Below, piece after piece: positions 7,780 through 51,041 of a stretch of 54,770 nt of DNA. The notes beneath the pieces are model-generated. The model ran no database searches. It was given only the letters and a program-made list of their open reading frames with translations, and was not told where the DNA came from. The first letter of the stretch is position 1; the number at the start of each line of letters is the position of its first letter. A program made the position numbers and the translations under genes. Origin of the DNA: Clostridium sp. CAG:780 (GTDB lineage: Bacteria > Bacillota > Clostridia > TANB77 > CAG-508). The stretch spans positions 1-54,770 of the forward strand of contig HF994476.1 in NCBI GenBank assembly GCA_000434195.1. Direction: 5' to 3'.

Positions 7780-7781
7780 TA

Positions 7782-8141
7782 TTATTCCTCCTCAAAACTG
7801 GCAATGATTTGTTTGATTTTTTGTTGTGCCTCGCTTATGCTATTTTTCGCATTCTCTAGGTCTTTCAACAACTTTTCGGCGTCTACCTTGAAAGCAACTT
7901 CTTCTCGACGAATATGGGTTTTGCAAGATGTCTTAACAACTTTCAAAAGTTCTTCCCGAGTTGTGCCGTTTGCTTCAGCGATGTCTTGCAAATGATAATA
8001 GACCGTGGTTTTATGGATGTTAAATTTTTTCGCAATATCAGGGATTGAAAATCCTTGATAATGAAGATCCATAAAATTTTGCTCCATTTGTAGGACTCGT
8101 TCGCTGAGCCAGGGTGCTTTGATAGGTGTAGTCGTGCGCAA
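7782..8141 (-). CDS. Small HTH DNA-binding protein in a GC-richer insert
   Basis: TTG start with an AGGAGGG RBS. HTH-like segment GFSIPDIAKKFNIHKTTVYYHLQ. Separated by 2 nt from the downstream coiled-coil gene. Confidence 0.6.
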   Translation of the reverse strand: MRTTTPIKAPWLSERVLQMEQNFMDLHYQGFSIPDIAKKFNIHKTTVYYHLQDIAEANGTTREELLKVVKTSCKTHIRREEVAFKVDAEKLLKDLENAKNSISEAQQKIKQIIASFEEE

Positions 8142-38627: not shown

Positions 38628-39224
38628 ATGAAATATGATATTGATGACATACAAAAAAGAAAAGAACTTCATGCAAGAATAAGAAAACTAGTTTACATCT
38701 TCTTGGTAATAATTTTATATAATATTGTATTACTATATATGTCTTATATAGATAAATTCGATACTCCTAGCTTCTACATTTATAAGGCTTATGTTATTAC
38801 AACAAATAGCATGGAGCCAGAATTAAAAAAAGACGATGTGGTTGTAATAAAAAAAGCAAAGGCAGACAACTTAAAACAAGGAGATATAATCACATTCAAG
38901 CAAAATGGAGAAACAATAACTCACAGAATCGTTCAAATAGACGATATAGAAGATGGCAAACTATATATAACCAAAGGGGATAATAATAATGTCCAAGATG
39001 AGCAAGGCCTAAGATTTGATCAAATTGAAGGAAAGTTAGTTATAAAGATTCCACAGTTAGGTAAGATGGTCGCATCATTTAAGAATGGTATAATTATTGT
39101 TTTGGTATTGTTAATCTCTGCGATAATTTACTTAAATAGAATTACAGCTAAAGAAAGAAGCAATATAAGAAGAGCAAAGAAAAAGCTAGAAGATAATAAA
39201 TATATAAACGAAAATAATAAGTAG
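38628..39224 (+). CDS. sipW: SipW-type (S26B, archaeal/ER-like) signal peptidase I, copy 1
   Basis: N- and C-terminal TM helices, catalytic Ser box TNSMEPEL, His box ITHRIV, and KGDNN. It lies 18 nt after the giant gene. Confidence 0.85.
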   Translation: MKYDIDDIQKRKELHARIRKLVYIFLVIILYNIVLLYMSYIDKFDTPSFYIYKAYVITTNSMEPELKKDDVVVIKKAKADNLKQGDIITFKQNGETITHRIVQIDDIEDGKLYITKGDNNNVQDEQGLRFDQIEGKLVIKIPQLGKMVASFKNGIIIVLVLLISAIIYLNRITAKERSNIRRAKKKLEDNKYINENNK

Positions 39225-39247
39225 TGTTTCGCTACTTATTATTTTTT
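39215..39247. terminator. Bidirectional terminator between convergent genes
   Basis: 9-bp stem aataagtag/ctacttatt with A-run and T-run on either side. It overlaps both stop codons. Confidence 0.6.
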
Positions 39248-40183
39248 TACCTTACTCACAACTGGTAAAGATTGATATACAATTTTGAAAAAGCGGAAAT
39301 CGTCTAATTCGTTAAACTCTAAACAAGAAAGATAAACATCTAACTCGTTTAAGTTTTTACAAGCTGTAATTATAGCTGGATGAAGGCTATAATTAGAAAA
39401 TAATTCAACAGCTAATTTTAATGCTTCTTTTTTAGTTCCATGTTCTCTATCCATTATAAGTTTGTAAGCTTCTTTAAATCTTGCGACAGCCGAAACTTTA
39501 TAGTTGCTCAAAGGAATAGTATATTGATCTAAAATTATATCTGATAAAGATGTATATTTTTCCGGATTTTTTCTAAGAATACGTTTAAGGTCTGTAACTT
39601 TATATGGAAGAGTAACAGTTCCATCTATTTCAGAAATAATTAAAGTGTCATCTGTTAATTTTGAAGTTGACTTTCTCTTTCTAGTAGTTTTAGTAGGTTT
39701 TTTTGTATCTTCCGGTTCAACAGTTTCAGCAACCTTATCTAATGCATCAATAGAAATATATTCTGATACATCAATAGAAGACATTGAATGAATAAATTTT
39801 TCTATATCCTCATTGTTATGCATGATTTGAGTAGTATTATTACTTAATTCTTTATTGTATTTAGTTATTTCACTAACAGTGATATTATATTTTACAGTAT
39901 CAAGGTTGTTTTTTATTGATTCTAATTGCTCTAATAAATTAGTATAAATTTCTATGTTTTTATTTATTTTAGATAAATATTCGCTAGCATCTGAAATGAA
40001 ATTATTAACATCATTAGAAAAAGTTGAATCAATATCCACATTACCTAAAAAATTCTTTAAAAACACCAAAATTTGCTTAGAAAAAGCCTTTTGTGAGCTT
40101 AATAAAGAATGAACAGAAGTGATTTCCATATCTATAAATTTGATAACATTGTCTTGATTTGTTTTTGAATTTAATTTAATCAT
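39239..40183 (-). CDS. Hypothetical cytoplasmic protein; one of only two minus-strand genes inside the locus (with 48430-49026)
   Basis: 314-aa ORF with a ggagga RBS, a basic linker (KKPTKTTRKRKSTSK) and a helical C-terminal domain. No motif recognised. Confidence 0.6.
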   Translation of the reverse strand: MIKLNSKTNQDNVIKFIDMEITSVHSLLSSQKAFSKQILVFLKNFLGNVDIDSTFSNDVNNFISDASEYLSKINKNIEIYTNLLEQLESIKNNLDTVKYNITVSEITKYNKELSNNTTQIMHNNEDIEKFIHSMSSIDVSEYISIDALDKVAETVEPEDTKKPTKTTRKRKSTSKLTDDTLIISEIDGTVTLPYKVTDLKRILRKNPEKYTSLSDIILDQYTIPLSNYKVSAVARFKEAYKLIMDREHGTKKEALKLAVELFSNYSLHPAIITACKNLNELDVYLSCLEFNELDDFRFFKIVYQSLPVVSKVKK

Positions 40184-40256: not shown

Positions 40257-40285
40257 TTGAAAAAAATAAAAGCGTATGATATATT
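40257..40285 (+). promoter_or_regulatory. Sigma-A-type promoter with extended -10
   Basis: TTGAAA, 17-nt spacer, TGaTATATT, about 50 nt upstream of the ORF at 40337. Confidence 0.55.
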
Positions 40286-40336: not shown

Positions 40337-40873
40337 ATGAAAAAAATAATTCAAAATATCATTATTATAATTTACACAGTAATAGCTGTTTTTACAACAG
40401 TATGTCTATTATCTTATAATGAATATAAAGTTAGCACTTTTGGAGATCACTCATTAATACTAGTTACGAACGATGAACTATCACCAGATTTCAAAAAAGG
40501 AGATTTGGTTGTAGTTACTGCGGGAAACAAAAGTAAAATTGCAGTAGGAGATAAAGTTTTCTTCTATAACACTAGAGACAAAAAAGTAGAAGTAGCGTTA
40601 GCAGAAGTTACAAATAGAGAAATAGTAACATCAACAGAGATAACATTTACAGTAGGCAAAGATCATGATGTATCAAGCCAGTATGTTCTTGGAAGTTCAA
40701 AAGATACTACTGTAATTCCAGTAGTTGGACAAATTTTAAGTGTATTAGAATCAAAATGGGGATTTTTATTCTTAATAGTCTTCCCATCATTAATAGCATT
40801 CCTTTATGAATTAACAGTTGTATTTTCAGGAATTAAAGAAGAAAGAAAAAAAGCAAAAGAAAATTCTAAATAA
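40337..40873 (+). CDS. SipW-like protein lacking the catalytic Ser and His (predicted pseudo-peptidase)
   Basis: Same topology and length as SipW, with N- and C-terminal TM helices. The Ser box reads TNDELSPDF (SipW-1: TNSMEPEL), the His box VTNREIV (SipW-1: ITHRIV), and GDNN becomes GKDHD. Confidence 0.6.
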   Translation: MKKIIQNIIIIIYTVIAVFTTVCLLSYNEYKVSTFGDHSLILVTNDELSPDFKKGDLVVVTAGNKSKIAVGDKVFFYNTRDKKVEVALAEVTNREIVTSTEITFTVGKDHDVSSQYVLGSSKDTTVIPVVGQILSVLESKWGFLFLIVFPSLIAFLYELTVVFSGIKEERKKAKENSK

Positions 40874-40882
40874 GGAAATATA

Positions 40883-41503
40883 ATGAATAAGAAAATAATC
40901 AAGAGAATCTTAATTATAATATTATTATTTATGATTTTTGTAGTGGCATATAAGTTAGTAAACACGTATGCCCTTTTTTATAGTGAAGGGAACGGAGTAA
41001 TTGAACAAAAGAATGCTACATGGAGAATTTATGTCAATAACCAAAATATAACCTCTAAAAACAGTAATAAATTCACAGTGGACACTTTCAATCTAGAAGA
41101 AAATAACCATGTTGCACCAGGGAAAATAGCACCAAATACAACAGGAAGTTTTAATTTATTAATCGACCCTAAAAATACAGATGTATCAGTTAAATATTCA
41201 GTTAAATTGGATAAGACAAAATTGATAAATGATAGAATCAAAATAGTATCTGTACAAGAGACTACTGGAAACACAAGCTTGATAATGACTGACGAGGATA
41301 CTTATACAGGAGTAATGAAGTTAGAAGAGATTAAGGCAGGAAAAACAAATAACATCAAGGTAATAATAACCTGGGAAAATGATGAAAGCAATAATAAAAT
41401 GGATACAGCCGTTGGAACAGTAAATAACTACAAAATAAGTATTCCAATAGAATTTATAGCAACTCAATATCTTGGCGAAGAAATAAAAGAATACATACCA
41501 TAG
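40883..41503 (+). CDS. Secreted TasA/camelysin-like protein with a SipW-cognate-like signal peptide
   Basis: Signal KRILIIILLFMIFVVAYKLVNTYALFYSEG. Clear paralog of the 48430-49026 protein (shared ATWRI/SRWDI, VAPG..AP..G.F.L.ID..NTDVS.KY, I.W.ND). Confidence 0.6.
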   Translation: MNKKIIKRILIIILLFMIFVVAYKLVNTYALFYSEGNGVIEQKNATWRIYVNNQNITSKNSNKFTVDTFNLEENNHVAPGKIAPNTTGSFNLLIDPKNTDVSVKYSVKLDKTKLINDRIKIVSVQETTGNTSLIMTDEDTYTGVMKLEEIKAGKTNNIKVIITWENDESNNKMDTAVGTVNNYKISIPIEFIATQYLGEEIKEYIP

Positions 41504-41512
41504 GAGCAAAAA

Positions 41513-41938
41513 ATGAAGATATTAAAGAAAGTAATATTGCTAATATTAGATATATTAATTGTATTTATATCAGTTTTAGTGATAATAGCAATTACATATG
41601 TATTTCAAACAAAAATACTTCATAAAAAATATGCAGACATAGTAGGCTTTACAGCATTTAGAGTTATAACTGGAAGCATGGCGGACACGATAAATATAGG
41701 AGATATAGTTGTAATAAAAATAACAGATAAAGTAAAACCAAACGATATTATTGTATATCAGGACAATGACTATTTTGTAACACATAGACTTGTTCAAGAA
41801 AGTGGTGAGAGTCTGATAACAAGGGGAGATGCAAACAACAGCGAAGATGTACCAATAAGTAGAGACCAAGTTTTAGGAAAAGTAGTTATGAATATATCTT
41901 CATCAAAAAAGAAAATAGAAATTACAGAAGGAAAATAG
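41513..41938 (+). CDS. sipW: SipW-type signal peptidase I, copy 2 (short form, no C-terminal TM helix)
   Basis: Ser box TGSMADTI, His box VTHRLV, and RGDANN. Confidence 0.8.
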   Translation: MKILKKVILLILDILIVFISVLVIIAITYVFQTKILHKKYADIVGFTAFRVITGSMADTINIGDIVVIKITDKVKPNDIIVYQDNDYFVTHRLVQESGESLITRGDANNSEDVPISRDQVLGKVVMNISSSKKKIEITEGK

Positions 41939-41939
41939 A

Positions 41940-42497
41940 ATGAAAAAGAGAATAATTCAAATATTAATATTAATTTTAATATTGATTTTATTAATAAGAA
42001 TAATATCTTTAACTATTTCAAAATATGAAAGCAGTGCCATATCAGACTCTGCAATACAAGTAGCATTCTATGTATTAAATAGGGATTATCAATCTATGAG
42101 TCTAAACTTGGAGTCATTATTTCCTAGAAATGAGCCGTATGTATATTATTTTTCTGTATCAAATTCAAATGGTGATAAGACGTGTGAGACAGACATGGAA
42201 TATGATTTAACAATAAGGACAACAACAAATTTACCAATAGAATACGAATTATACAAGAATGAACAATATACAAACGATGCAGCACAAAGCATAATAAAAT
42301 CTGATGATATAGTGCAAGATGATGACAATACATATTTTAGAGTTATTACAACTGAAACAGAGACATTTTCGTACAATGAAGCAAAGAAAAATATATATCA
42401 ATTAGTTGTGAGATTCCCAGCAAAGTATAACACAATCAATTATCAAGATATAATCGAAGCGATTGAAATAACAGTTGATTCGAAACAAATAATATAA
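41940..42497 (+). CDS. Secreted protein with a SipW-cognate-like N-terminus
   Basis: Signal anchor ILILILILILLIRIISLTISKYESSAIS and a beta-rich mature part. Its start is 1 nt after the sipW-2 stop. Confidence 0.5.
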   Translation: MKKRIIQILILILILILLIRIISLTISKYESSAISDSAIQVAFYVLNRDYQSMSLNLESLFPRNEPYVYYFSVSNSNGDKTCETDMEYDLTIRTTTNLPIEYELYKNEQYTNDAAQSIIKSDDIVQDDDNTYFRVITTETETFSYNEAKKNIYQLVVRFPAKYNTINYQDIIEAIEITVDSKQII

Positions 42498-42515
42498 ACT
42501 AAGGAAGGGAGAAGT

Positions 42516-43448
42516 ATGCAAAAAAAGAGTACAAGAAACAAAAACTTGAATAGACGAAAAACAATAATCTTGCTAATTTTAATTTTAATTTTTGCAATAG
42601 CGACTCCAACTCTTGGAAGATATGTAATTACAGGTATAAACAACTTTTTCCTTAGAACAAAAGAATTTTATTTTTATAGCGACAAATTAAAAGATATAAG
42701 AGCTGTGTATCAAATAGATAACTGGACGGGAGTAGACCCATATACAATTACAGTACATATGAACAGCATTGAAAACAACTTAAAAAAATCCACATATGAT
42801 ATAAGTTATTCGATTTCATATACATGTTCGCAAAATGCAACTTGTCAATTAAGCAAAGAAACTGGAATAATTCCTGCAAATAACAATGACGATTATTTCA
42901 ATATAATAATCACACCTAATATAGGTTTAACTACGGGTGATAAAGTTAGTGTTGAAATCATAGCGACATCAACATCTAAATATCAAAAGAAACTAACTGC
43001 AATGTTTGTGTTGGTCGTAGGAAAAGAAAAGACATCTTATGAAATTGTAGACTCTGTTAATAGCAAATATTTGGATTTGAATATAACTAATACACTTTCA
43101 TATTATAATGTAGAAACAGCATTTGGAAATTATAGTGTAGGGGATAGAATAGATGTTGATACATATCTTACACTTCCAGAAACAGATAAGCAAAAGTGCT
43201 ATTCTGCTTTAATAACACTTAAGTTTGATCCAAAAAAAGTATTGCTGGATATGACAAACACCAATTATTTAAATGCGATATCTACTAGAACAACAAACAT
43301 CAATGGTAGCAATTACATTAGTGAAATAACATTTAAAGTGGAGCCAATTTCTAGTGCAGTTGTTCGATTTTATAAGCAAGACGTCACAAAAGATTACACA
43401 TATCCTATTATAAACTCAAATTCGATAATAGACTTTGAATCAAGATAA
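42516..43448 (+). CDS. Secreted protein with a SipW-cognate-like N-terminus (larger paralog class)
   Basis: K/R-rich n-region and h-region TIILLILILIFAIATPTLGRYVITG, with a beta-rich mature part. Confidence 0.5.
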   Translation: MQKKSTRNKNLNRRKTIILLILILIFAIATPTLGRYVITGINNFFLRTKEFYFYSDKLKDIRAVYQIDNWTGVDPYTITVHMNSIENNLKKSTYDISYSISYTCSQNATCQLSKETGIIPANNNDDYFNIIITPNIGLTTGDKVSVEIIATSTSKYQKKLTAMFVLVVGKEKTSYEIVDSVNSKYLDLNITNTLSYYNVETAFGNYSVGDRIDVDTYLTLPETDKQKCYSALITLKFDPKKVLLDMTNTNYLNAISTRTTNINGSNYISEITFKVEPISSAVVRFYKQDVTKDYTYPIINSNSIIDFESR

Positions 43449-43481: not shown

Positions 43482-44480
43482 ATGACAATAAACGTAATGA
43501 AGGAATATTTAAAGATAGTACAAGAAGAGCTCACAACATATATGAAACTAATATTTGAAAAAAAATATAATAGAAAAATCACACTAAGATATTTAGACGC
43601 ATATATGAATGTAAGATTCTATAATTTCTACATAAAAGATGAGAAACTAACCTTTCGAAAAAACTATTTAAATGCGATAAAAGAAGAAGAACAAAAAATT
43701 CTAGCAGACATGCCTAAAAATAAGAAATTAATAGAAAATATGGGCTTGTTCTTCTACTATATACTTTATTTTGATAAAATTTCATACCGTGTTGATACAG
43801 AAGAAATAGTAGAAAAACTATATAAAATAAGAAAAAGAATTCTTAAAAAAGACAATCCAGAATTCAAAAAAGATTTTTACAATGCATATAGAATATATAC
43901 AAATAGAAAGAATCAGTTTTTAACAACTTTTGACACAGACAAATTTATATTAAAAATAGCAGACTATGAAGGAACTAATAACGCCAATAGAGTTGTTCTA
44001 CGATATATCATAGAAGAGCCAACTCTTTATAATACACAGGCATATGAAACAGCTTTCTCGGAAGGGGTCGTTTCTGAGGACAAGCTTTTTGTAGAATATT
44101 ATTTAATTACAACTCAAGTAATACATGATATTTTAAAAGGTAACTTTAAAAAACAATATATAGTTGAATTCAATCCTAGTTTATTAAAAAAGAATAGAAA
44201 ATTAAATCAATTACTAGAAATAATAAACAATTCAGCAATACAAGACAAGGTAAATATAAGAATAGAATATGCTGATTTTATAAAAAACAAAGACAAAGTT
44301 TATGATTTGATGAAAAACGGTTATAGACTAGCAATAGTGTTAGACAATACATTTGAACCAGAATATTCAAATTTCCAAAGGCTGAACGCTTTTAACTATA
44401 TTTTGGCTAGTAAAAAACTAGAATATTTTGACAAAATACTACTTAATGAACAAGAACTCAATGGATTAATAAAAATATAA
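43482..44480 (+). CDS. Cytoplasmic protein with a degenerate, truncated EAL-like C-terminal half
   Basis: No signal peptide. The C-terminus follows EAL-domain topology (YIVEFNPSLL ~ NLS strand; VNIRIEYADF ~ EITE; GYRLAIVLDNTFEPEYSNFQRLNAFNYILASKKL ~ G..ialDDFGtGyssl..L..l..d.lKiD), but the catalytic residues are replaced. Confidence 0.4.
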   Translation: MTINVMKEYLKIVQEELTTYMKLIFEKKYNRKITLRYLDAYMNVRFYNFYIKDEKLTFRKNYLNAIKEEEQKILADMPKNKKLIENMGLFFYYILYFDKISYRVDTEEIVEKLYKIRKRILKKDNPEFKKDFYNAYRIYTNRKNQFLTTFDTDKFILKIADYEGTNNANRVVLRYIIEEPTLYNTQAYETAFSEGVVSEDKLFVEYYLITTQVIHDILKGNFKKQYIVEFNPSLLKKNRKLNQLLEIINNSAIQDKVNIRIEYADFIKNKDKVYDLMKNGYRLAIVLDNTFEPEYSNFQRLNAFNYILASKKLEYFDKILLNEQELNGLIKI

Positions 44481-44496: not shown

Positions 44497-46023
44497 ATGG
44501 AAACTTTTACAAAATTTTTATATGACTTCCTTGGACAATTCTTTTCTGGAATTAGAATAATTTTTCAAGGATTAGGTAAGGGACTAAAAGAAACGGTAAA
44601 TATAGGTTCTTATTCTAACATTATACAAAAGTACAAAGGCGACTTCTCAATGCCAGAATGGATATTGGTAGCAATCGCTGTTGGCCTAATATTATTGATT
44701 TTTGTCCTTGTTGGACTATTGATATTTTTAACAATTAGAAAATATGGAAAGATTCGCAAAAAAACAATAGATCAAGATGCAATGTTACAAGAAATTGCAT
44801 CACTAAATGGACAGGTTGCAAAACTCGTAAAAGAAAAAGACGAGATACTTGCAATGAAAGTATCTCAATTAGGATTAAAACCACTAGAATCTGCAGAAGA
44901 AGAACAAGAAGAAAACAAAGAAGAGGAAGATACCTCAGGACAAGGATATAGATTTGCAAAATTAATGACAATAGATGAAGAATTTGCAAACTATAAAAAA
45001 CAAAATTATGGAAATACATTTACACTTCCAGAATTGTGCGAGCATTTTAGAAATTTTGCAGCATCCAAATTAAGACTATACTATACTATCGACATGATGA
45101 GACTATTTATATCAGCTCTTGCATCAACGAAATTAGTTATATTGCAAGGTATTTCTGGAACAGGTAAGACATCACTTGCATACGCTTGGGGAAAATTCTT
45201 AAAACATGACTCTTGTGTTGCATCAGTTCAACCATCATGGAGAGATAGAACAGAGTTATTTGGATACTTCAACGAGTTTACAAAAAAATTCAATGAAACC
45301 GAAGTTTTAAAAGAAATGTACAAAGCTGGCTATACAGACGACGTTTATACAATAATATTAGACGAGATGAACATCGCACGTGTTGAGTACTATTTTGCTG
45401 AAATGCTATCAATACTAGAGATGCCAAACAAAAATGAATGGGTTATAGAAATTGTTCCTAGCAGTTGGAAAACTGACCCTAAAATGTTAAAAGAAGGGAA
45501 ACTTAAAATTCCACCAAACATGTGGTATATCGGAACAATCAACAACGATGACTCAACATTCATGGTTACAGATAAGGTTTACGATAGAGCAATGCCAATC
45601 GATATTAATGATAAAGGTAAAGTCTTTACACCAATAGAAATGGATGCTATGGATATTAATTATTCTTATCTAGACCAATTATTTTCAACAGCTATGCAAG
45701 AACATCAAGTATCAGAAGAGACATTGGCAAAAATCGAACAAATGGATGACTATACAATCAAACATTTCCGTATTGCATTTGGTAACCGTATAGTAGCTCA
45801 TATGAAAAAATTTGTGCCAGTATTTGTTGCCTGCGGAGGAGACGAAATTGAAGGCGTTGACTACTTTATGGCAAAAAAAGTATTAAGAAAATTTGAGCAG
45901 TTAAACATATCTTACATAAGAGATGAAATAACTCCATATATAGATTTCTTAGATAAAACATTTGGAAAAGGTAAAATGAAAGAATGCATAGATTATATGA
46001 TGAGATTGAAGAAACTTACTTAA
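44497..46023 (+). CDS. Membrane-anchored McrB-like AAA+ (AAA_5) NTPase
   Basis: One TM helix (WILVAIAVGLILLIFVLVGLLIFLTI) followed by RKYGKIRKK. Walker A GISGTGKTS, Walker B and McrB signature ILDEMNIARVEYYFAEMLSILE, then WYIGTINNDDST...DRAMPIDI (compare McrB IIGTMNTADRS...RRF). Confidence 0.7.
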   Translation: METFTKFLYDFLGQFFSGIRIIFQGLGKGLKETVNIGSYSNIIQKYKGDFSMPEWILVAIAVGLILLIFVLVGLLIFLTIRKYGKIRKKTIDQDAMLQEIASLNGQVAKLVKEKDEILAMKVSQLGLKPLESAEEEQEENKEEEDTSGQGYRFAKLMTIDEEFANYKKQNYGNTFTLPELCEHFRNFAASKLRLYYTIDMMRLFISALASTKLVILQGISGTGKTSLAYAWGKFLKHDSCVASVQPSWRDRTELFGYFNEFTKKFNETEVLKEMYKAGYTDDVYTIILDEMNIARVEYYFAEMLSILEMPNKNEWVIEIVPSSWKTDPKMLKEGKLKIPPNMWYIGTINNDDSTFMVTDKVYDRAMPIDINDKGKVFTPIEMDAMDINYSYLDQLFSTAMQEHQVSEETLAKIEQMDDYTIKHFRIAFGNRIVAHMKKFVPVFVACGGDEIEGVDYFMAKKVLRKFEQLNISYIRDEITPYIDFLDKTFGKGKMKECIDYMMRLKKLT

Positions 46024-46044
46024 TAAACTTTGGAGGAAAAGAAT

Positions 46045-47196
46045 ATGGAAGATTCAAAAATATTAGACATATGTCAAGGCGCTACGGGAAAAGAAGAATC
46101 TCAATTCAAAAAAAATCTAGAATCTAAACTACATGTAAAAACAGATTATGAAAAAGTAATAAAAGATACAGAGTGGATAGGAATTATGGAAGAAACAATT
46201 CCATATTTAGATAACATTTTTAGAGCCCCTAATAGATTTATTATAAATGAAGAAGAAATCGTAAAAATAGAAAGAGCAAGAAGAATAACCGTAGAAAGTA
46301 TAAAAAACTTGTCAAAAAATACTAGTTTTATACAAGAAGTTGATAAAAAAACAGGGGATGTAAAGCCATCTAAAATTCTTAACATAGATAAAGAGGAAAG
46401 CTATGACACCTATGAAAACAGATTAATTTACACTCTTATCCAAAACATGAAATTCTTTTTAAGTCAGAAGAAAAAAACATTGGAACAATTTCAAAATGTG
46501 GACTCAAAAAATGATAAATATTTTGACTATAATGGAAGCTCTTTGGTAAATGGACAAAATGTAAATATAAATCTTTCTTTAAATGCTACGACCATGTGTG
46601 GCGATGCAGGAGAAAATAAGGCAGATGACGTATTAGATAGAATAGCACAATTAGAGGTCAGAATACTAGACTTAACAAGCAATGATGTTTATAAAATAAT
46701 AGACAAAAAGCATATTTCATTGGTAAGAGAACCTATAAAAAAGACAAACGTAGTATTGAAAAACGTTAATTTTCAATATGCTATGAAATTATGGACATAT
46801 CTAAGAGAAAACATGGATGACAAAACAAAAAAAACTAGTCAAAATGAAGATTATGAGGACAACAGTAATTTAAAAGAGTTAATGGACGATGCATTCTTTA
46901 TAGATTATCTTGTTATGCAGACCATAGACAAAGATAGGGAACAAACAAAAGAGCAAGAAGAGGAAAAGAAAAAAGAAAATCAAGAAATAATTATAAGTAA
47001 AATGCTAGAAAAAGTAGTAGCTATGGATAATAACTTGTCAATAAAAGATATAAAAGACATTATTGGTGAAAAATATGCTGTTATAAGATATAGAAATCAA
47101 GCTAGCATAAAAGAAGTTCAAAAAATATTTAGCCAAAGTATAGACGAATATCTAACAAAAGTAAAAAATAATATTGGAGGAAAAAATCTTGGATAA
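46045..47196 (+). CDS. Partner of the McrB-like NTPase: McrC/DUF2357-like N-terminal motif, no recognisable nuclease motif
   Basis: The ggagga RBS favours the ATG at 46045. The ESYDTYENRLIYTLIQNM block resembles the TPENRF block of McrC/DUF2357 proteins. I found no PD-(D/E)xK-like D...(D/E)xK motif. Acidic coiled-coil C-terminal half. Confidence 0.5.
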   Translation: MEDSKILDICQGATGKEESQFKKNLESKLHVKTDYEKVIKDTEWIGIMEETIPYLDNIFRAPNRFIINEEEIVKIERARRITVESIKNLSKNTSFIQEVDKKTGDVKPSKILNIDKEESYDTYENRLIYTLIQNMKFFLSQKKKTLEQFQNVDSKNDKYFDYNGSSLVNGQNVNINLSLNATTMCGDAGENKADDVLDRIAQLEVRILDLTSNDVYKIIDKKHISLVREPIKKTNVVLKNVNFQYAMKLWTYLRENMDDKTKKTSQNEDYEDNSNLKELMDDAFFIDYLVMQTIDKDREQTKEQEEEKKKENQEIIISKMLEKVVAMDNNLSIKDIKDIIGEKYAVIRYRNQASIKEVQKIFSQSIDEYLTKVKNNIGGKNLG

Positions 47197-47776
47197 ACTA
47201 AAAAATAATAAAGCTTTAAAAATAATTGGAAATATCTTATATTATCTATTAGTAATTTTTGTATTATTAATACTACTAGTAGTAATATTTCAAAGAGTAA
47301 CTAAAAACAGTGCAAGTATAGGCGGAATCAGAATATTTAACATTGTTACTGAGAGTATGGTTCCGGAATACAATGTGGGAGATATATTAGTATCTAAAAC
47401 TATTTCGCCAGACAAAATTAAGGTGGGGGATGATCTAGTATATTTAGGAAACAAAGATTCATTTACAGGAAAAATTGTAACACATAGAGTAATTGCAATA
47501 GACAAAAACGAAAATGGACAATATGAATTCCACACAAAAGGAATCGCCAATACTGCAGAAGATCCTGTAGTATCAGAAAGTCAAGTTTATGGAACAATAA
47601 TATACAAAACACGTGTTTTAAGCCTTATTAGCAAAGTAATAAACAATTTATATGGATTCTATTTCTTAATATTTGTTCCACTTACAATTCTTATAATTGT
47701 AAAAATAATTAAGATTCATAGAGAAAAAAATGAAGACAATGAAGAAATAGAAGAAGACAATTCAAAAAAAGAATAG
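47189..47776 (+). CDS. sipW: SipW-type signal peptidase I, copy 3
   Basis: Ser box TESMVPEY, His box VTHRVI, and N- and C-terminal TM helices. Likely TTG start at 47189 after a ggagga RBS (the ORF track starts at 47174). It overlaps the upstream stop. Confidence 0.75.
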   Translation: MDKLKNNKALKIIGNILYYLLVIFVLLILLVVIFQRVTKNSASIGGIRIFNIVTESMVPEYNVGDILVSKTISPDKIKVGDDLVYLGNKDSFTGKIVTHRVIAIDKNENGQYEFHTKGIANTAEDPVVSESQVYGTIIYKTRVLSLISKVINNLYGFYFLIFVPLTILIIVKIIKIHREKNEDNEEIEEDNSKKE

Positions 47777-47788
47777 AAGAGGAAACTA

Positions 47789-48397
47789 GTGGAAGAAAAA
47801 AAGAAGAAAATAACTTTTAATAAGTATTTAACTTTAAAAGCGCTAATAATATTAGTTGTATTATTAGCTTTTAACTCATATGCTTGGTTTGTATTTGCAA
47901 CAAAAGTTTCTGGTGGTCTGACCGCTAGTGTAGTAGCTTGGGACATTACCTTTCAAGTAGGCGATAGTGAAGCAATTACAAACGTAGAAATAGATGTAAG
48001 CAAAATATATCCGGGAATGGAAACCTATATTAAACAAATATCTGCTAAGAATTCGGGAGAATCAGAGGCAACTTTAGCATATGAATATAAATCATTAACA
48101 CTATTAGGAGAAACATTTACAGTAGGAGAAAATATAACACAAGAAGAATTAGAAAATAAAATTCAAAACGAATATCCTTTTAAAATATCAGTAACAGTTG
48201 ATAAATCAGAGCTGACAACAGGATTTGAAGAGGCTCACTTTACAATAAAAGTAGAATGGGCATATGAATCAGGAGATGATGATGCAGATACATACTGGGG
48301 AGAAAAAGCTTATGAATTTAAAAAGAATCATCCAAATGAGAGTTGTTTAAGAGTAGGCCTAGTCTTATCAGCAGAGCAAAAAGATAAGAAAATATAA
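47789..48397 (+). CDS. Secreted TasA-like protein with a SipW-cognate-like signal peptide
   Basis: GTG start. Signal ALIILVVLLAFNSYAWFVFAT, and the AWDITF, IYPGM, NSGESEA and KVEWAYESGDD blocks shared with the paralogs. Confidence 0.6.
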   Translation: MEEKKKKITFNKYLTLKALIILVVLLAFNSYAWFVFATKVSGGLTASVVAWDITFQVGDSEAITNVEIDVSKIYPGMETYIKQISAKNSGESEATLAYEYKSLTLLGETFTVGENITQEELENKIQNEYPFKISVTVDKSELTTGFEEAHFTIKVEWAYESGDDDADTYWGEKAYEFKKNHPNESCLRVGLVLSAEQKDKKI

Positions 48398-48424
48398 AAA
48401 AGTTGGAAAAATTCCAACTTTTTA
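48396..48424. terminator. Bidirectional terminator
   Basis: Stem aaaaagttggaa/ttccaacttttt between convergent genes. Confidence 0.7.
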
Positions 48425-48429
48425 TTGAT

Positions 48430-49026
48430 TTATACAACTTGAGTAAGTGCGATTTTGACATTTAAAATTGCTGAATTAGTTGCTTGTAATGTAGAAGAAG
48501 TATCATCAATATTATTCATCGATGAAGTATCTGGATCATCATTCCACATAATAAATATACGCATACTTCTTGTTCTTACTGCATCAGAAAGACTTATTGT
48601 ATCTGTAAGTGGAGTGCTAAAATCTGAAACTGTAATTTTGTCCCCGCCATTTATTGAATAACCAGTTATTACAAGATCAGAAACGGCACTTTCTTGAGAA
48701 GTCTCTATGCTAATTTCATACTTAAATGAAACATCTACATTAGTATAGTCAAGATTTAAATCAAAGTATCCTTCGGCTGTTGGCGCAATAACATTACTAG
48801 CAATATTCTCATTTCCAGGGAATACTGGAGTTATTTTAGAAGAAATATCCTGATTATTTTTAATAGATGCTCCATTTAATTTTATATCCCATCTAGATAT
48901 TGCAATCTCAGCTCTTCCGGAAACTGCGGTCCTATACTTTGCATAAACCTGAGAAACAAAAAGTGCTAAAATCGCAAGTAAACTGCAACAAATAAGTAAA
49001 AAACTAATTCTTTTAAAAATTTTCAT
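48430..49026 (-). CDS. Secreted TasA/camelysin-like protein (paralog of 40883-41503)
   Basis: The ATG at 49026 follows an agagg RBS. Signal ISFLLICCSLLAILALFVSQVYAKYRTAV, and blocks shared with the 40883 protein. Confidence 0.6.
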   Translation of the reverse strand: MKIFKRISFLLICCSLLAILALFVSQVYAKYRTAVSGRAEIAISRWDIKLNGASIKNNQDISSKITPVFPGNENIASNVIAPTAEGYFDLNLDYTNVDVSFKYEISIETSQESAVSDLVITGYSINGGDKITVSDFSTPLTDTISLSDAVRTRSMRIFIMWNDDPDTSSMNNIDDTSSTLQATNSAILNVKIALTQVV

Positions 49027-49145
49027 AAGTTTACCTCTTTTAACTTGATTTATATCTATCATATATATTATAATAAATTGTACTATAAAATAAAAACTAA
49101 ATCAATATATTATAATATTTTCAAAAGAAAAATAGGAGAGACAAG

Positions 49146-49910
49146 ATGAAAAAGAAAGAAAATAAAGAACAAGGTCAGAACGTGCCGGAAAAAGATAAAC
49201 AAAATAAAAAAGAAGATAAATGGAAAGCAGAGTTGAACTCGGAAAAACTCAAAAAAAGAGAGAGAATCATTAGAATAATAAAAATAAGTTTATTAATCAT
49301 TGCATTATTTTTAATAATAATATATTTCTTATTAAGGCTATTCTATGACGGGGGAGCGTTCACAGTTGCATTAGATGATGCTCTAGCAAAAAAGAGTGGA
49401 TTAATAATGTATGAAAAATTAAACGAAAAAGACGAGAGAAAAATATTAAAAGTAGATCAATTAGAGTTTGTCGACAATATATCGATAAACTGGCTTCCTG
49501 CAGACATAGATTCACAGGGAGAAGGAACACATAACGGTCCAAATTATATTGCCTATACATTTTATCTAGAAAACAAAGGTGCAGATTCAATTAACTATTG
49601 GTACAAAATTGTCGTAGATGATGTAGTAAAAAATGTAGATGAAGCAATAAGAGTAATGATATATCGAAATGGCGAAAGAGAAGTTTATTCAAAGAAAAAT
49701 TCAAGAACAGGAGAAGCAGAAGCAGGAACAATAGCTTTTAAAGATGACATAACCGTAACAGACCAACAAAGAACAGGTTTTAATCCAGGAGATATTGATA
49801 GATTTACAATAGTTATTTGGGTAGAAGGAGACGACCCTGATTGTGTAGATGCTTTAATAGGTGGAATGATGAAAATGCATATGGATATAACAGAAGAACA
49901 TACATATTAA
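49146..49910 (+). CDS. Membrane-anchored or secreted protein of the WVEGxDxDC subfamily
   Basis: Long K/E-rich N-terminus and TM helix ISLLIIALFLIIIYFLL. C-terminal blocks NYIAYTFYLEN and FTIVIWVEGDDPDC are shared with the 50049 protein. Confidence 0.55.
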   Translation: MKKKENKEQGQNVPEKDKQNKKEDKWKAELNSEKLKKRERIIRIIKISLLIIALFLIIIYFLLRLFYDGGAFTVALDDALAKKSGLIMYEKLNEKDERKILKVDQLEFVDNISINWLPADIDSQGEGTHNGPNYIAYTFYLENKGADSINYWYKIVVDDVVKNVDEAIRVMIYRNGEREVYSKKNSRTGEAEAGTIAFKDDITVTDQQRTGFNPGDIDRFTIVIWVEGDDPDCVDALIGGMMKMHMDITEEHTY

Positions 49911-49920
49911 GCAACAAAAT

Positions 49921-49966
49921 ATTACATTATATTACAAAATGTTACAAAGATTACAGTTAAATTACA
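49921..49966 (+). promoter_or_regulatory. Five helically phased (A/G)TTACA direct repeats upstream of the 50049 promoter
   Basis: TTACA occurs at 49922, 49932, 49942, 49951 and 49962 (spacing 10, 10, 9, 11 bp). The array ends 16 bp before the putative -35. Confidence 0.5.
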
Positions 49967-49981
49967 AATTAGTCGTATGTA

Positions 49982-50010
49982 TTGACTTGATATGAAGAAT
50001 ATGGTATCTT
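49982..50010 (+). promoter_or_regulatory. Putative promoter of the candidate major-subunit gene
   Basis: TTGACT, 17-nt spacer, TGgTATCTT (extended -10, weak -10 hexamer). Confidence 0.4.
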
Positions 50011-50048
50011 TGTATTAACACAACAAATAAAGAAAAGAGGAAAAAATA

Positions 50049-51041
50049 ATGAGTAAAAAAAATCAAAAGAAAACAAGTTTAAAATCAGCAATACTAGTCT
50101 TATTGCTAATAGCCTTATTGCTAATCACATCATCTTATGCATGGTTCACAGCTAACCAAATAGTAACAGTAAGCCAATTACAAGTAAATGTTAAAGCATC
50201 GAATGGTCTACAAATATCAGCAGATGCACAAAGCTGGAAAACAATACTTGAAAAAGCTGACTTAGATAAAGCAGGAACAGCTTACAATGTATTAATAAAT
50301 CAATTACCTGAAGACAATTTAGAGCCAGTATCAACAACCGGAAATGTGTCAACTGGAAAAATGGATATGTTTTATGGAGTAGCAGCAGCAAATGATGCTG
50401 ATGGTGGTAATTTCTATATATCATCTACAAAAGAAACAGATACAACAGGAAAAACTGGAAAATATATAGCATTTGATTTATTCTTAAAAGTAGATCAAGA
50501 TACAACAGTTTATCTATCATCTAACTCAAAAGTAACAATAAATGGAGATACTGATTTAGGATTACAAAACGCAGCACGTGTAGCATTCGTAAAAGAAGGA
50601 ACTCTTACAGCTGATAAAGACCCAGGAAGCATGAGGGAATTAGCACTTGCTACTGGAACAGCAGATATATGGGAACCAAACTATGACACTCATACTGCAA
50701 AAGGTGTGGCAGCTGCCCGTGATACATATGGTGTAACAACAACTACAACTAATGGCGCTAAAATACCATACTTCGGAATAAAAGATATAATTCCTGTAAA
50801 TACAGTTCCTATGAAACAATCAACAACAACAAATCCAAATGAAACATATTTTGATTCAGTTACAACAAAATGGCATACAGCAGCAGCAAATTCAACAAAC
50901 TTTGAATTTGGAAAATTAACAGCTGGTGTTACAAAAATCAGAGTCTACATGTGGGTTGAAGGACAAGATGTTGACTGTGAGAACTCAGCATCAGGAGCAA
51001 CAATCAACTTTGACTTACAATTTACAACAAATAATGGATAA
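50049..51041 (+). CDS. Secreted TasA-like protein, candidate major fibre subunit (monocistronic)
   Basis: Signal SAILVLLLIALLLITSSYAWFTANQ, a strong aagagga RBS, its own promoter region and its own terminator. Thr/Gly/Ala-rich mature part ending in IRVYMWVEGQDVDC. Confidence 0.65.
   Translation: MSKKNQKKTSLKSAILVLLLIALLLITSSYAWFTANQIVTVSQLQVNVKASNGLQISADAQSWKTILEKADLDKAGTAYNVLINQLPEDNLEPVSTTGNVSTGKMDMFYGVAAANDADGGNFYISSTKETDTTGKTGKYIAFDLFLKVDQDTTVYLSSNSKVTINGDTDLGLQNAARVAFVKEGTLTADKDPGSMRELALATGTADIWEPNYDTHTAKGVAAARDTYGVTTTTTNGAKIPYFGIKDIIPVNTVPMKQSTTTNPNETYFDSVTTKWHTAAANSTNFEFGKLTAGVTKIRVYMWVEGQDVDCENSASGATINFDLQFTTNNG

What the first reader, a model, noticed from the sequence alone, without database searches (positions are those of the whole stretch)
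44497..47196. Membrane-tethered McrB-like AAA+ NTPase with a partner lacking a recognisable nuclease motif, embedded in the fibre operon
What the sequence shows:
- The 508-aa protein has McrB/AAA_5 hallmarks: GISGTGKTS, ILDEMNIARVEYYFAEMLSILE, WYIGTINNDDST...DRAMPIDI.
- Where McrB carries its N-terminal DNA-binding domain, this protein has about 53 aa, one TM helix, then RKYGKIRKK and a coiled coil. By the positive-inside rule the NTPase faces the cytoplasm.
- The downstream 383-aa protein keeps a McrC/DUF2357-like block (ESYDTYENRLIYTLIQNM). I could find no PD-(D/E)xK motif in it.
- Both genes lie within 6-35 nt of their neighbours or overlap them. They sit between secreted TasA-like genes and sipW-3, on the same strand.

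Inference: this is not a restriction module. It looks like an McrBC-derived motor recruited to the membrane, perhaps to power or gate export or assembly of the fibre or giant adhesin. Alternatively it is a new membrane-coupled abortive-infection module that happens to be inserted here. Either case is not a described architecture as far as I know.
Basis: partly seen in the sequence, partly recalled or inferred. Interest (0 to 1): 0.8.

Follow-up and report, generated by a model that had tools for sequence, protein, structure and literature searches.

The report
Membrane-anchored McrBC relative in fibre operon
A membrane-tethered GTPase and its partner, both descended from the McrBC restriction enzyme but without any nuclease, are built into an operon for SipW-processed secreted surface proteins; this arrangement was named "CoCoPALM" in 2024 and its function has never been tested.

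Summary
44497-46023 encodes a 508-aa McrB-family GTPase with one N-terminal TM helix. 46045-47196 encodes a 383-aa DUF2357 (McrC N-terminal) protein with no nuclease. Both lie inside a tight 10-gene operon with three SipW-type peptidases.

The linkage is not accidental. The partner follows the GTPase in 94 of 96 related loci. A same-strand SipW lies within 4 kb in 55 of 55 loci with enough flank. The linkage survives gene-order rearrangements down to 34-46% identity. The GTPase is the most conserved gene of the operon and is absent as a full-length protein from 72,556 plasmids and 2.9 million viral contigs.

Bell et al. (eLife 2024) described and named this architecture "CoCoPALM", in one paragraph and without experiments.

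New here: the gene directly upstream (p332) has a degenerate EAL fold, closest to the c-di-GMP sensor FimX, and is fused to SipW in some lineages. No nuclease exists anywhere in the module.

Best reading: a cytoplasmic-face GTPase module of a SipW-dependent surface-fibre apparatus, possibly under c-di-GMP control. A defence role is not excluded; one relative sits beside a prophage lysis cassette.

This is a new member of a known but uncharacterised kind.

The parts
40337..40873 (+). sipW2: SipW-like pseudo-peptidase and first gene of the operon
   Evidence: It matches NF046067 SipW (3.8e-11) but falls below the TIGR02228 cut-off. It lacks both the catalytic Ser (SM.P becomes DEL) and the His (THR becomes VAL) in the paralog alignment. 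A promoter-like site lies at 40257-40285 (weak evidence).
40883..41503 (+). Secreted protein with a TasA-type signal (TYALFYSE)
   Evidence: Translation. No Pfam, NCBIfam or PDB-sequence hit. It is conserved in synteny. 'TasA-like' rests on signal and motif resemblance only.
41513..41938 (+). SipW-type signal peptidase, short form without the C-terminal TM segment
   Evidence: TIGR02228 at 8.5e-18, above the cut-off. Alignment.
41940..43448 (+). Two signal-anchored proteins of unknown family (185 aa and 310 aa)
   Evidence: ORFs. No family hits. Conserved in synteny.
43482..44480 (+). p332: cytoplasmic protein with an N-terminal helical bundle and a degenerate EAL-fold domain
   Evidence: AlphaFold2 pLDDT 89.4, pTM 0.87. 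All 50 top Foldseek PDB hits are EAL domains, and the best is the FimX EAL domain (4fou_B, E 4.4e-4, prob 1.0). No Pfam EAL hit in 21 members. The domain is fused to the C-terminus of a SipW in L074 and L093.
44497..46023 (+). CoCoPALM-type McrB-like GTPase, 508 aa
44659..44763 (+). TM helix (aa 55-80) followed by the basic patch RKYGKIRKK (aa 81-89)
45148..45174 (+). Walker A motif, GISGTGKTS
   Evidence: G218, G221, G223, K224 and T225 are invariant in alignment A2.
45352..45420 (+). Walker B motif and following helix, IILDEMNIARVEYYFAEMLSILE
   Evidence: It aligns to the E. coli McrB segment IIDEINRANLSKVFGEVMMLME.
45532..45558 (+). GTPase signature motif GTINNDDST, an NxD followed by D
   Evidence: The pattern GT[AI]NxD[DE]ST is conserved across about 110 representatives. 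It matches the NxD-branch definition of Bell et al..
46045..47196 (+). DUF2357 (McrC N-terminal domain) partner, 383 aa, without a nuclease
   Evidence: Pfam PF09823 at 6e-12. Start codon. Conservation is confined to aa ~41-250 and the tail is variable. No PDB or Foldseek hit.
47189..47776 (+). sipW3: SipW-type signal peptidase whose start overlaps the partner's stop
   Evidence: TIGR02228 at 1.1e-21. The catalytic SM.P and THR motifs are present.
47789..48397 (+). Secreted protein with a TasA-type signal (SYAWFVF) and last gene of the unit
48397..48423 (.). Bidirectional terminator-like hairpin that closes the 10-gene unit
   Evidence: 12-pair stem with T-runs on both strands.
38628..39224 (+). 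sipW1: SipW-type peptidase just downstream of the 2962-aa protein; part of the wider locus
   Evidence: TIGR02228 at 1.1e-28. Conserved in synteny.
48430..51041 (.). Three more secreted proteins with the TasA-type signal: 210 aa on the minus strand, then 254 aa and 330 aa on the plus strand. They belong to the wider locus.
   Evidence: In alignment A4 the YAWF signal motif and a C-terminal W-x-EG-x-D-x-D motif are invariant.

Best explanation
The pair is a member of the CoCoPALM class. It is an McrBC-derived GTPase-plus-activator module that has lost DNA targeting and cleavage, and it is a fixed cytoplasmic-face component of a SipW-dependent apparatus for secreted surface proteins.

**Shown**
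- The 508-aa protein is an McrB-family NxD GTPase with all nucleotide-binding and hydrolysis motifs intact. A single N-out/C-in TM helix holds it at the membrane.
- Its partner keeps only the McrC N-terminal (DUF2357) domain. In McrBC this is the domain that inserts into the McrB hexamer and stimulates GTP hydrolysis. That role is established knowledge from McrBC structures, as cited in PMC11090510.
- The pair is co-operonic and probably translationally coupled with SipW peptidases and their presumed substrates.
- The adjacent p332 has a degenerate EAL fold.

**Inferred**
- A membrane-tethered hexamer, activated by the DUF2357 partner, uses GTP hydrolysis to drive or gate a step in processing, export or polymerisation of the SipW substrates.
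- p332 acts as a regulatory input, possibly sensing c-di-GMP. The analogy is with FimX acting on the type IV pilus ATPase, or with LapD controlling a protease that acts on an adhesin.
- Which step is driven, and whether the GTPase acts as a motor or a switch, is not known.
For: - **Family and motifs:**
- **TM and topology:** the TM helix is present in 124 of 124 relatives and the K/R bias favours the C-terminal side in 121 of 124.
- **Partner:** it matches DUF2357 at 6e-12. Across 12 diverse partners, conservation is limited to aa ~41-250. Seven variants show no nuclease domain.
- **Linkage:** the partner is adjacent in 94 of 96 loci, and a same-strand SipW lies within 4 kb in 55 of 55 loci.
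- **Rearrangement:** the linkage survives changes in gene order. Examples are SipW-GTPase-partner in L087-L111 and L120, GTPase-partner-SipW in the window, L028-L030 and L122, and GTPase-SipW in L118. This holds down to 34% identity.
- **Conservation:** the GTPase ranks first among 14 operon genes in 15 of 15 loci, with a mean of 80% against 47-66% for the others.
- **Operon structure:** gaps are 1-33 nt, Shine-Dalgarno sites are present, and the partner's stop overlaps the sipW3 start. A terminator appears only after tasA202.
- **Not mobile:** there are 0 full-length hits in 72,556 plasmids and only 3 distant hits in viral contigs. The flanks are housekeeping genes.
- **p332:** it has an EAL fold and is fused to SipW in L074 and L093. 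Canonical EAL proteins follow SipW in L029 and L030.
- **Literature:** Bell et al. reached the same contextual inference, 'pilus assembly linked'.
Against: - No experiment exists for any member of the class.
- TasA-type fibres in Bacillus assemble outside the cell by donor-strand exchange without a known cytoplasmic NTPase (PMC9674648). The need for a motor is therefore not obvious.
- The neighbours' TasA-like nature is unproven. Profiles hit nothing in Pfam, NCBIfam or PDB sequences.
- The partner model is of low confidence (pLDDT 63), so absence of a nuclease fold rests mainly on sequence conservation.
- p332 lacks most EAL catalytic and ligand motifs at the sequence level, so c-di-GMP binding is a guess. 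No c-di-GMP riboswitch is present.
- L025 and L085 keep the GTPase without the partner.
- L119 places the p332-GTPase-partner trio directly after a phage lysis cassette, with no SipW in 8.7 kb.
- The 111 loci are phylogenetically related, so the counts overstate independence.
Confidence: 0.6

Rival explanations
1. It is an anti-phage or abortive-infection module. A membrane-tethered McrBC or CoCoNuT derivative senses infection, perhaps of phages that use the surface fibre as a receptor, and it is carried within the fibre operon.
For: - The ancestry lies in Type IV restriction and CoCoNuT systems.
- The PADLOC candidate defence family PDC-M26A hits at 1e-33.
- The nearest TM-less relatives are plasmid-borne.
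- In L119 the trio follows a prophage lysis cassette of DUF859, holin and an M23/LysM lysin, a typical position for a phage accessory gene (moron).
Against: - There is no nuclease or other recognisable effector in the pair or its neighbours.
- The PADLOC hit covers only the shared AAA+ core and scores the same for a TM-less plasmid relative.
- Synteny with SipW is strict across rearrangements.
- The GTPase is the slowest-evolving gene of the operon, unlike typical defence genes.
- Full-length relatives are absent from plasmids and viral contigs.
- No defence genes lie in the flanks.
Confidence: 0.15
2. It is a regulatory switch and not a motor. The GTPase and partner act as a nucleotide-state-dependent scaffold that switches SipW peptidases, or the dead paralog sipW2, on and off in response to p332, without doing mechanical work on substrates.
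For: - p332 has an EAL fold and is physically fused to SipW in some lineages.
- The operon contains a conserved pseudo-peptidase, sipW2.
- TasA-type assembly is known to be energy-independent outside the cell (PMC9674648).
- Bell et al. expect the NxD motif variant to modulate the hydrolysis rate.
Against: - All catalytic motifs of a hydrolysing AAA+ protein are conserved.
- The partner retains the hydrolysis-stimulating DUF2357 domain.
- The available data do not separate this reading from the motor reading.
Confidence: 0.2
3. It is a cell-division or sporulation factor, as suggested by the FtsB/DivIC-like N-terminal module and the nearby yabP-yabQ-divIC genes.
For: - Bell et al. call the N-terminal module FtsB-homologous.
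- yabP, yabQ and a DivIC-like gene lie 5-6 kb downstream in the window.
Against: - Homology to the window's DivIC is undetectable (hhalign probability 1%).
- None of the 31 genome loci shows yabP, yabQ, divIC or rho within 10 kb of the pair.
- The conserved neighbours are SipW and secreted proteins.
Confidence: 0.03

Closest known systems
[quoted passage not shown]
   Same: - The GTPase is an NxD-motif McrB-like GTPase.
- It has an N-terminal TM helix followed by a helical linker.
- The partner carries DUF2357.
- The pair is tightly associated with signal-peptidase-family genes.
- The McrC nuclease is absent.
   Different: - Nothing defining differs.
- In this window the coiled-coil parts are short and not statistically detectable. 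Relatives carry 300-600 aa coiled-coil tails on the partner.
- The paper gives one paragraph on the class. It does not mention the EAL-fold neighbour or its fusion to SipW, as far as its held text and supplements show.
CoCoNuT systems (CnuB/CnuC; same paper) and the PADLOC candidate PDC-M26
   Same: - They belong to the same NxD branch of McrB GTPases.
- The partners carry DUF2357 and often lack an active McrC nuclease.
- The core is 35-45% identical.
   Different: - CoCoNuT GTPases are 700-870 aa, have long coiled coils and have no TM helix.
- They are always associated with HEPN or other nucleases and occur on plasmids.
- The window's pair is membrane-anchored, free of nucleases and chromosomal.
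Canonical McrBC Type IV restriction enzyme (E. coli; PDB 6hz4, 6ut6)
   Same: - The AAA+ GTPase core aligns over about 170 residues.
- The Walker A and B motifs, the signature Asn/Asp motif and the Arg-rich segment are shared.
- The partner has an McrC-type N-terminal domain.
   Different: - There is no N-terminal DNA-binding domain; a TM anchor takes its place.
- The signature motif is NxD and not NxxD.
- The partner has no PD-(D/E)xK nuclease.
- The context is secretion and not restriction-modification.
FimX-PilZ-PilB (Xanthomonas/Pseudomonas type IV pilus control) and LapD-LapG
   Same: - A degenerate EAL-domain protein is the best structural match of p332.
- It is coupled to an assembly NTPase of a surface filament (FimX), or to a protease acting on a giant adhesin (LapD).
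   Different: - These resemblances are analogies only.
- The NTPase family, peptidase family and filament type all differ.
- c-di-GMP binding by p332 is untested.
tapA-sipW-tasA (Bacillus subtilis) and sipW-bsaA-bsaB-bsaC (Clostridium perfringens) matrix-fibre operons
   Same: - A SipW-type peptidase is co-operonic with secreted fibre subunits bearing a characteristic signal peptide.
- In C. perfringens, secretion of operon products partly depends on a separate NTPase-driven machine, the type IV pilus genes (bioRxiv 10.1101/2024.11.04.621531).
   Different: - The cited descriptions of those operons mention no McrB-like GTPase or DUF2357 protein.
- The window's secreted proteins show no detectable sequence similarity to TasA.

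Membership tests
CoCoPALM (Bell et al. 2024) | McrB-like GTPase whose signature motif is shortened to NxD, usually followed by D or E | tested here: met
   The window protein has GTINNDDST, which reads as N-N-D followed by D. The pattern GT[AI]NxD[DE]ST is conserved across about 110 representatives, including NKDE, NRDE and NQDE forms. Caveat: NNDD also fits NxxD in the ungapped alignment to E. coli McrB. The family-wide pattern decides in favour of NxD.
CoCoPALM (Bell et al. 2024) | GTPase fused at its N-terminus to a TM helix plus coiled-coil module described as FtsB-homologous | tested here: inconclusive
   The TM helix is clearly present and conserved in 124 of 124 relatives. The helical linker at aa 92-126 shows no heptad signal above shuffles. 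Homology to the window's DivIC/FtsB-type protein is not detectable (hhalign probability 1%), and there is no Pfam DivIC hit. The architecture matches but homology is not shown.
CoCoPALM (Bell et al. 2024) | Genomic association with signal-peptidase-family proteins | tested here: met
   Four SipW-type genes lie in the locus. A same-strand SipW lies within 4 kb in 55 of 55 loci. The association also holds at 34-46% identity.
CoCoPALM (Bell et al. 2024) | Adjacent McrC homolog carrying DUF2357, usually with a coiled coil | tested here: met
   DUF2357 is matched at 6e-12, above the cut-off. The partner is adjacent in 94 of 96 loci. The window's partner has only a short charged tail, whereas relatives carry long coiled coils.
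McrBC Type IV restriction system | McrB-family AAA+ GTPase core | tested here: met
   McrB is the only PDB family hit (E 0.002 with one sequence, 2.5e-5 with a profile). The Walker A, Walker B, signature and Arg motifs are conserved.
McrBC Type IV restriction system | N-terminal DNA-binding or modified-base-reading domain on McrB | tested here: not met
   Residues 1-150 are an amphipathic segment, a TM helix, a basic patch and an acidic linker. There is no domain hit.
McrBC Type IV restriction system | McrC with a PD-(D/E)xK endonuclease domain | tested here: not met
   There is no PDDEXK or other nuclease family in the window partner or in 7 diverse variants. No acidic or lysine motif is conserved beyond aa 250. 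The C-terminus is modelled as helices, at low confidence. No PDB sequence or fold hit was found.
CoCoNuT | Long coiled-coil fusion on the GTPase and an associated HEPN or other nuclease | tested here: not met
   The GTPase is 508 aa and has a TM anchor in place of a long coiled coil. No nuclease is found in the operon.
PADLOC PDC-M26 (candidate defence system) | Full-length match to PDC-M26A together with the system's other components | tested here: not met
   The match covers only profile positions 314-436 of 724, which is the AAA+ core. The partner and p332 have no PADLOC hit. The composition of PDC-M26 could not be looked up.
EAL domain (for p332) | EAL TIM-barrel-like fold | tested here: met
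   The model has pLDDT 89. All top 50 Foldseek hits are EAL domains, with probability 1.0 for the top 29 and 0.85 or higher throughout, and target-normalised TM-score (TMt) up to about 0.48 for isolated EAL-domain targets.
EAL domain (for p332) | Sequence signature and catalytic residues of active c-di-GMP phosphodiesterases | tested here: not met
   None of 21 members hits Pfam EAL at E up to 1. The domain is therefore degenerate, and ligand binding cannot be tested with these tools.
TasA/camelysin-type fibre subunits (for the neighbours) | Detectable homology to TasA or its fold | tested here: inconclusive
   Profiles of two neighbour families hit nothing in PDB sequences, Pfam or NCBIfam. 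Only the signal-peptide motif (hydrophobic helix plus YAWF) and the co-operonic SipW support the label.

The most novel reading that the evidence does not exclude
CoCoPALM would be a third kind of Gram-positive filament-biogenesis machine, alongside sortase pili and type IV pili. In this reading a membrane-tethered hexameric GTPase, exapted from a restriction enzyme and activated by a nuclease-less McrC remnant, drives or gates SipW-dependent processing and extrusion of surface fibres. It would act under the control of a degenerate EAL-domain c-di-GMP receptor that is physically coupled to the signal peptidase.
Probability: 0.3. Interest if true: 0.85.

Novelty: new member of a known kind. Interest (0 to 1): 0.5.

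Why it matters
- **Exaptation:** McrBC is the textbook GTP-dependent restriction enzyme. A large clade has lost every nucleic-acid-related part and is hard-wired into a secretion operon. That would be a clear case of a defence motor taken over for cell-surface biogenesis.
- **Abundance:** The family is common in uncultured gut and rumen Bacillota. There are more than 8,000 relatives in each of two protein searches, and 758 of the 50%-identity cluster representatives score below 1e-30. Every public copy seen is unnamed or hypothetical.
- **Experimental targets:** The class has been named but never studied experimentally. This locus, with the conserved EAL-fold neighbour, its fusion to SipW and the dead peptidase paralog, gives concrete targets for knockouts, GTPase assays and c-di-GMP binding tests.

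Tried and rejected
- **Partner fold:** The AlphaFold2 model had pLDDT of only 63. Foldseek against the PDB gave nothing with E below 0.1, and sequence and profile searches of the PDB gave nothing. This neither shows nor excludes a remnant nuclease fold. The conclusion rests on the lack of conservation beyond aa 250.
- **p332 as EAL by sequence:** Pfam scans of 21 members and a profile search of the PDB found nothing. Only the structure model resolved it.
- **L118 upstream fragment:** My guess that it is an EAL tail got no Pfam support.
- **TasA homology of the neighbours:** Two profile searches against PDB sequences, Pfam, NCBIfam and a plasmid tblastn were all negative.
- **FtsB/DivIC homology of the N-terminus:** hhalign gave a probability of 1%.
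- **Coiled coil in the window proteins:** The heptad test was not above shuffles.
- **c-di-GMP riboswitch or any Rfam family in the window:** None was found.
- **Literature:** A search for PDC-M26 gave no papers. No follow-up CoCoPALM paper was found, and the supplements held for the eLife paper do not mention the class.
- **Sporulation or division role:** Rejected, because the yabPQ/divIC neighbourhood is not conserved.
- **Names from public sources:** All entries are hypothetical or unnamed.


Full report
**1. The observation**

Both ORFs are present. The 508-aa product of 44497-46023 carries the quoted motifs at aa 218-226 (GISGTGKTS), 286-308 (IILDEMNIARVEYYFAEMLSILE), 346-354 (GTINNDDST) and 359-366 (DKVYDRAM). 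Pfam sees only a sub-threshold AAA_5 match. E. coli McrB is the only solved-structure family recovered, with E 0.002 for the single sequence and 2.5e-5 for a 20-sequence profile, aligned over aa ~193-366.

A single strongly hydrophobic helix at aa 55-80 (Kyte-Doolittle peak 3.36) is followed by RKYGKIRKK. All 124 full-length relatives examined have this helix. In 121 of them the C-terminal flank is richer in K/R (mean 5.1 vs 1.3), so the GTPase is cytoplasmic and the first ~54 residues are outside. The coiled coil after the helix could not be confirmed with a simple heptad test.

The partner's real start is ATG 46045. It matches Pfam DUF2357, the McrC N-terminal domain, at 6e-12.

**2. No nuclease**

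The partner has no nuclease family hit, no PDB sequence or profile hit and no Foldseek hit. The model is only moderately confident (pLDDT 63), and its C-terminal third is helical.

More telling is an alignment of 12 partners spanning 20-56% identity. Conservation is confined to aa ~41-250, which covers the DUF2357 core with the YEN motif and a TN..KN..F/Y block. Beyond that there are only variable charged or coiled-coil tails of 120-650 aa. Seven diverse partner variants show no nuclease in Pfam.

Bell et al. report that CoCoNuT systems lacking an McrC nuclease always have another nuclease next door, so I checked the only unexplained cytoplasmic neighbour, p332 (43482-44480). Its AlphaFold2 model is confident (pLDDT 89.4, pTM 0.87). 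All 50 best PDB matches are EAL domains, led by the degenerate, c-di-GMP-sensing EAL domain of FimX (E 4.4e-4, probability 1.0). It is not a nuclease. It has no Pfam EAL signal in any of 21 members, so it is a degenerate EAL domain.

**3. Operon and context**

From sipW2 (40337) to tasA202 (ends 48397) there are ten same-strand genes with gaps of 1-33 nt and Shine-Dalgarno sites. The partner's stop overlaps the sipW3 start. A strong bidirectional terminator follows at 48397-48423.

Three of the four SipW-like genes in the locus pass the archaeal/SipW-type signal peptidase model. The fourth, sipW2, lacks both the catalytic Ser and His and is a pseudo-peptidase.

The secreted neighbours share an N-terminal hydrophobic helix followed by a YAWF-type motif. 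They have no detectable homology to TasA or to any curated family. "TasA-like" is therefore a label based on the signal motif and the SipW partnership, not a tested homology.

The wider window is ordinary chromosome, with PolA, SecA, serine dehydratase, YabP, YabQ and Rho.

**4. Is the linkage real?**

In 31 species-representative genomes, all uncultured gut or rumen Bacillota, the gene order from rev314 to p330 is conserved. Across these loci together with 80 metagenome loci at 54-85% identity, the DUF2357 partner is immediately downstream in 94 of 96 loci. A same-strand SipW lies within 4 kb in 55 of 55 loci with at least 4 kb on both sides.

The linkage survives rearrangement:

- At 54-58% identity the order is secreted protein, SipW, GTPase, long partner, secreted protein.
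- Bacilli at 43-46% have GTPase, partner, SipW, EAL protein.
- A GC-rich organism at 43% has SipW, GTPase, partner (L120).
- A 38% relative has two secreted proteins, GTPase, partner, SipW (L122).
- A 34% relative has secreted protein, GTPase, SipW (L118).

In several lineages the p332 domain is fused to the C-terminus of a SipW, a Rosetta-stone link between the peptidase and the cytoplasmic module.

The GTPase is the most conserved of the 14 operon genes in 15 of 15 complete loci, with a mean of 80% against 47-66% for the others. Full-length relatives are absent from 72,556 plasmids and from 2.9 million viral contigs. The TM-less relatives do occur on plasmids.

The PADLOC hit to the candidate defence family PDC-M26A (1e-33) covers only the AAA+ core and scores the same for such a plasmid relative. 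It marks the clade and says nothing about function.

**5. Exceptions and cautions**

- L025 and L085 have the GTPase without the partner.
- L119, a 39% relative with a slightly atypical Walker A, has p332-like, GTPase and partner directly after a siphovirus DUF859 gene, a holin and an M23/LysM lysin. No SipW is seen in the 8.7-kb contig. This is the best evidence for a phage-related role, but it is a single case on a short contig.
- The loci are related by descent, so the counts are not independent events. The gene-order variants are the stronger argument.

**6. Comparison with what is known**

Bell, Makarova, Wolf and Koonin (eLife 2024, PMC11090510) surveyed McrBC systems. They describe a branch whose GTPase signature motif is shortened from NxxD to NxD. 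[quoted passage not shown] They name these CoCoPALM and defer analysis to a later paper. No such paper is in the library.

The window protein fits. The motif pattern GT[AI]NxD[DE]ST is conserved through about 110 representatives. The TM helix, the SipW association and the DUF2357 partner are all met. FtsB homology and the coiled coil could not be reproduced for this particular protein.

**7. How it most likely works**

The following is shown. The GTPase is an intact McrB-type GTPase held at the inner face of the membrane. Its partner is reduced to the domain that, in McrBC, plugs the hexamer and stimulates hydrolysis. Both are co-expressed with SipW peptidases, a dead SipW paralog, an EAL-fold protein and a set of secreted proteins.

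The following is inferred. The hexamer-partner complex couples GTP hydrolysis to a membrane step in processing, export or polymerisation of the SipW substrates, or it gates that step. p332 provides regulatory input, possibly c-di-GMP. This is analogous to FimX acting on the type IV pilus ATPase, or to LapD controlling a protease that acts on an adhesin.

A partial precedent comes from C. perfringens. There, secretion of BsaC, a product of the SipW operon, depends on the type IV pilin PilA3. Release of BsaA oligomers was reduced in several pilus-gene mutants, including the ATPase gene pilB1, although the authors call that result not definitive. Against a motor role, TasA fibres in Bacillus assemble outside the cell without one.

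I give 0.6 to the general statement that this is a non-restriction component of SipW-dependent surface-protein biogenesis. Within that, motor versus switch is unresolved. I give 0.15 to a defence role.

**8. Verdict**

The locus is a new member of a known kind that has been named but not characterised.

Interest is moderate at 0.5. The exaptation of a restriction motor is striking and untested, but it has already been pointed out and this locus is a typical member of an abundant family.

The additions from this analysis are:

- the EAL-fold neighbour and its fusion to SipW;
- the clade-wide absence of any nuclease;
- the pseudo-peptidase sipW2;
- the GTPase being the most conserved operon gene;
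- related 2-TM and multi-TM classes in other contexts.

Noticed in passing
window 43482-44480; L074:5907-7997; L093:6051-7997: The unannotated protein upstream of the GTPase has a degenerate EAL fold whose best structural match is FimX. In some lineages it is fused to the C-terminus of a full SipW peptidase. Canonical EAL proteins follow SipW in the Bacilli loci L029 and L030. This suggests c-di-GMP control of the apparatus.
   Followed up: yes
window 40337-40873: sipW2, the first gene of the operon, lacks both the catalytic Ser and His of SipW-type peptidases. It is nevertheless among the better-conserved genes of the operon (mean 61% identity), so it is probably a pseudo-peptidase. Whether its orthologs are also inactive was not checked.
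   Followed up: partly
L116:3475-15554; L123:4988-10344; L121: A related class with two N-terminal TM helices (Walker A GMSGTGKT) occurs as a GTPase-partner-GTPase tandem. It is followed by a membrane-anchored YDG-domain protein and, in L116, a protein of more than 3,176 aa. No SipW is nearby. Membrane-anchored NxD GTPases may therefore be linked to giant surface proteins more generally.
   Followed up: partly
P0284, P0285, P0289, P0290 and others; L117, L124, L125: Another class fuses the same GTPase core to an N-terminal domain with 4-6 predicted TM helices, again followed by a DUF2357 partner. The contigs were too short to judge context.
   Followed up: partly
L119:721-8267: A 39%-identical single-TM relative, with its p332-like gene and partner, lies directly after a siphovirus DUF859 gene, a holin and an M23/LysM lysin. 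No SipW is seen in the 8.7-kb contig. It is either carried by a prophage or sits next to one.
   Followed up: partly
L025:10001-12740; L085:480-3553: Two loci keep the GTPase but lack the DUF2357 partner. In L025 a DprA-like gene follows and the whole downstream half of the locus (sipW3 onward) is missing.
   Followed up: partly
window 49146-51041 and orthologs (alignment A4): The secreted proteins p254 and p330 and their relatives share an invariant C-terminal motif, W-x-E-G-x-D-x-D, usually followed by C. It is also seen in the Bacilli and L097 loci. Its role is unknown.
   Followed up: no
window 29721-38609: A 2,962-aa protein with an N-terminal signal anchor and many G-rich repeats lies directly upstream of sipW1. 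It has no Pfam hit, and a homolog was found in only one of the 31 genome loci (L001).
   Followed up: no
window 39239-40183 (minus strand): A divergently oriented 314-aa gene of unknown function lies between sipW1 and sipW2. It is conserved in synteny at 34-66% identity and may be a regulator of the operon.
   Followed up: no
window 2982-6333: Two adjacent large serine recombinases (Resolvase, Recombinase and DUF4368 domains) lie at the left end of the window. They suggest a mobile element boundary far from the finding.
   Followed up: no
L097:4685-5203 and L097:7314-7832: Two paralogous 172-aa ORFs flank the SipW gene inside a CoCoPALM locus. They resemble REP/IS200-type tyrosine transposases by eye, but the copy scanned (7314-7832) had no Pfam hit.
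   Followed up: no
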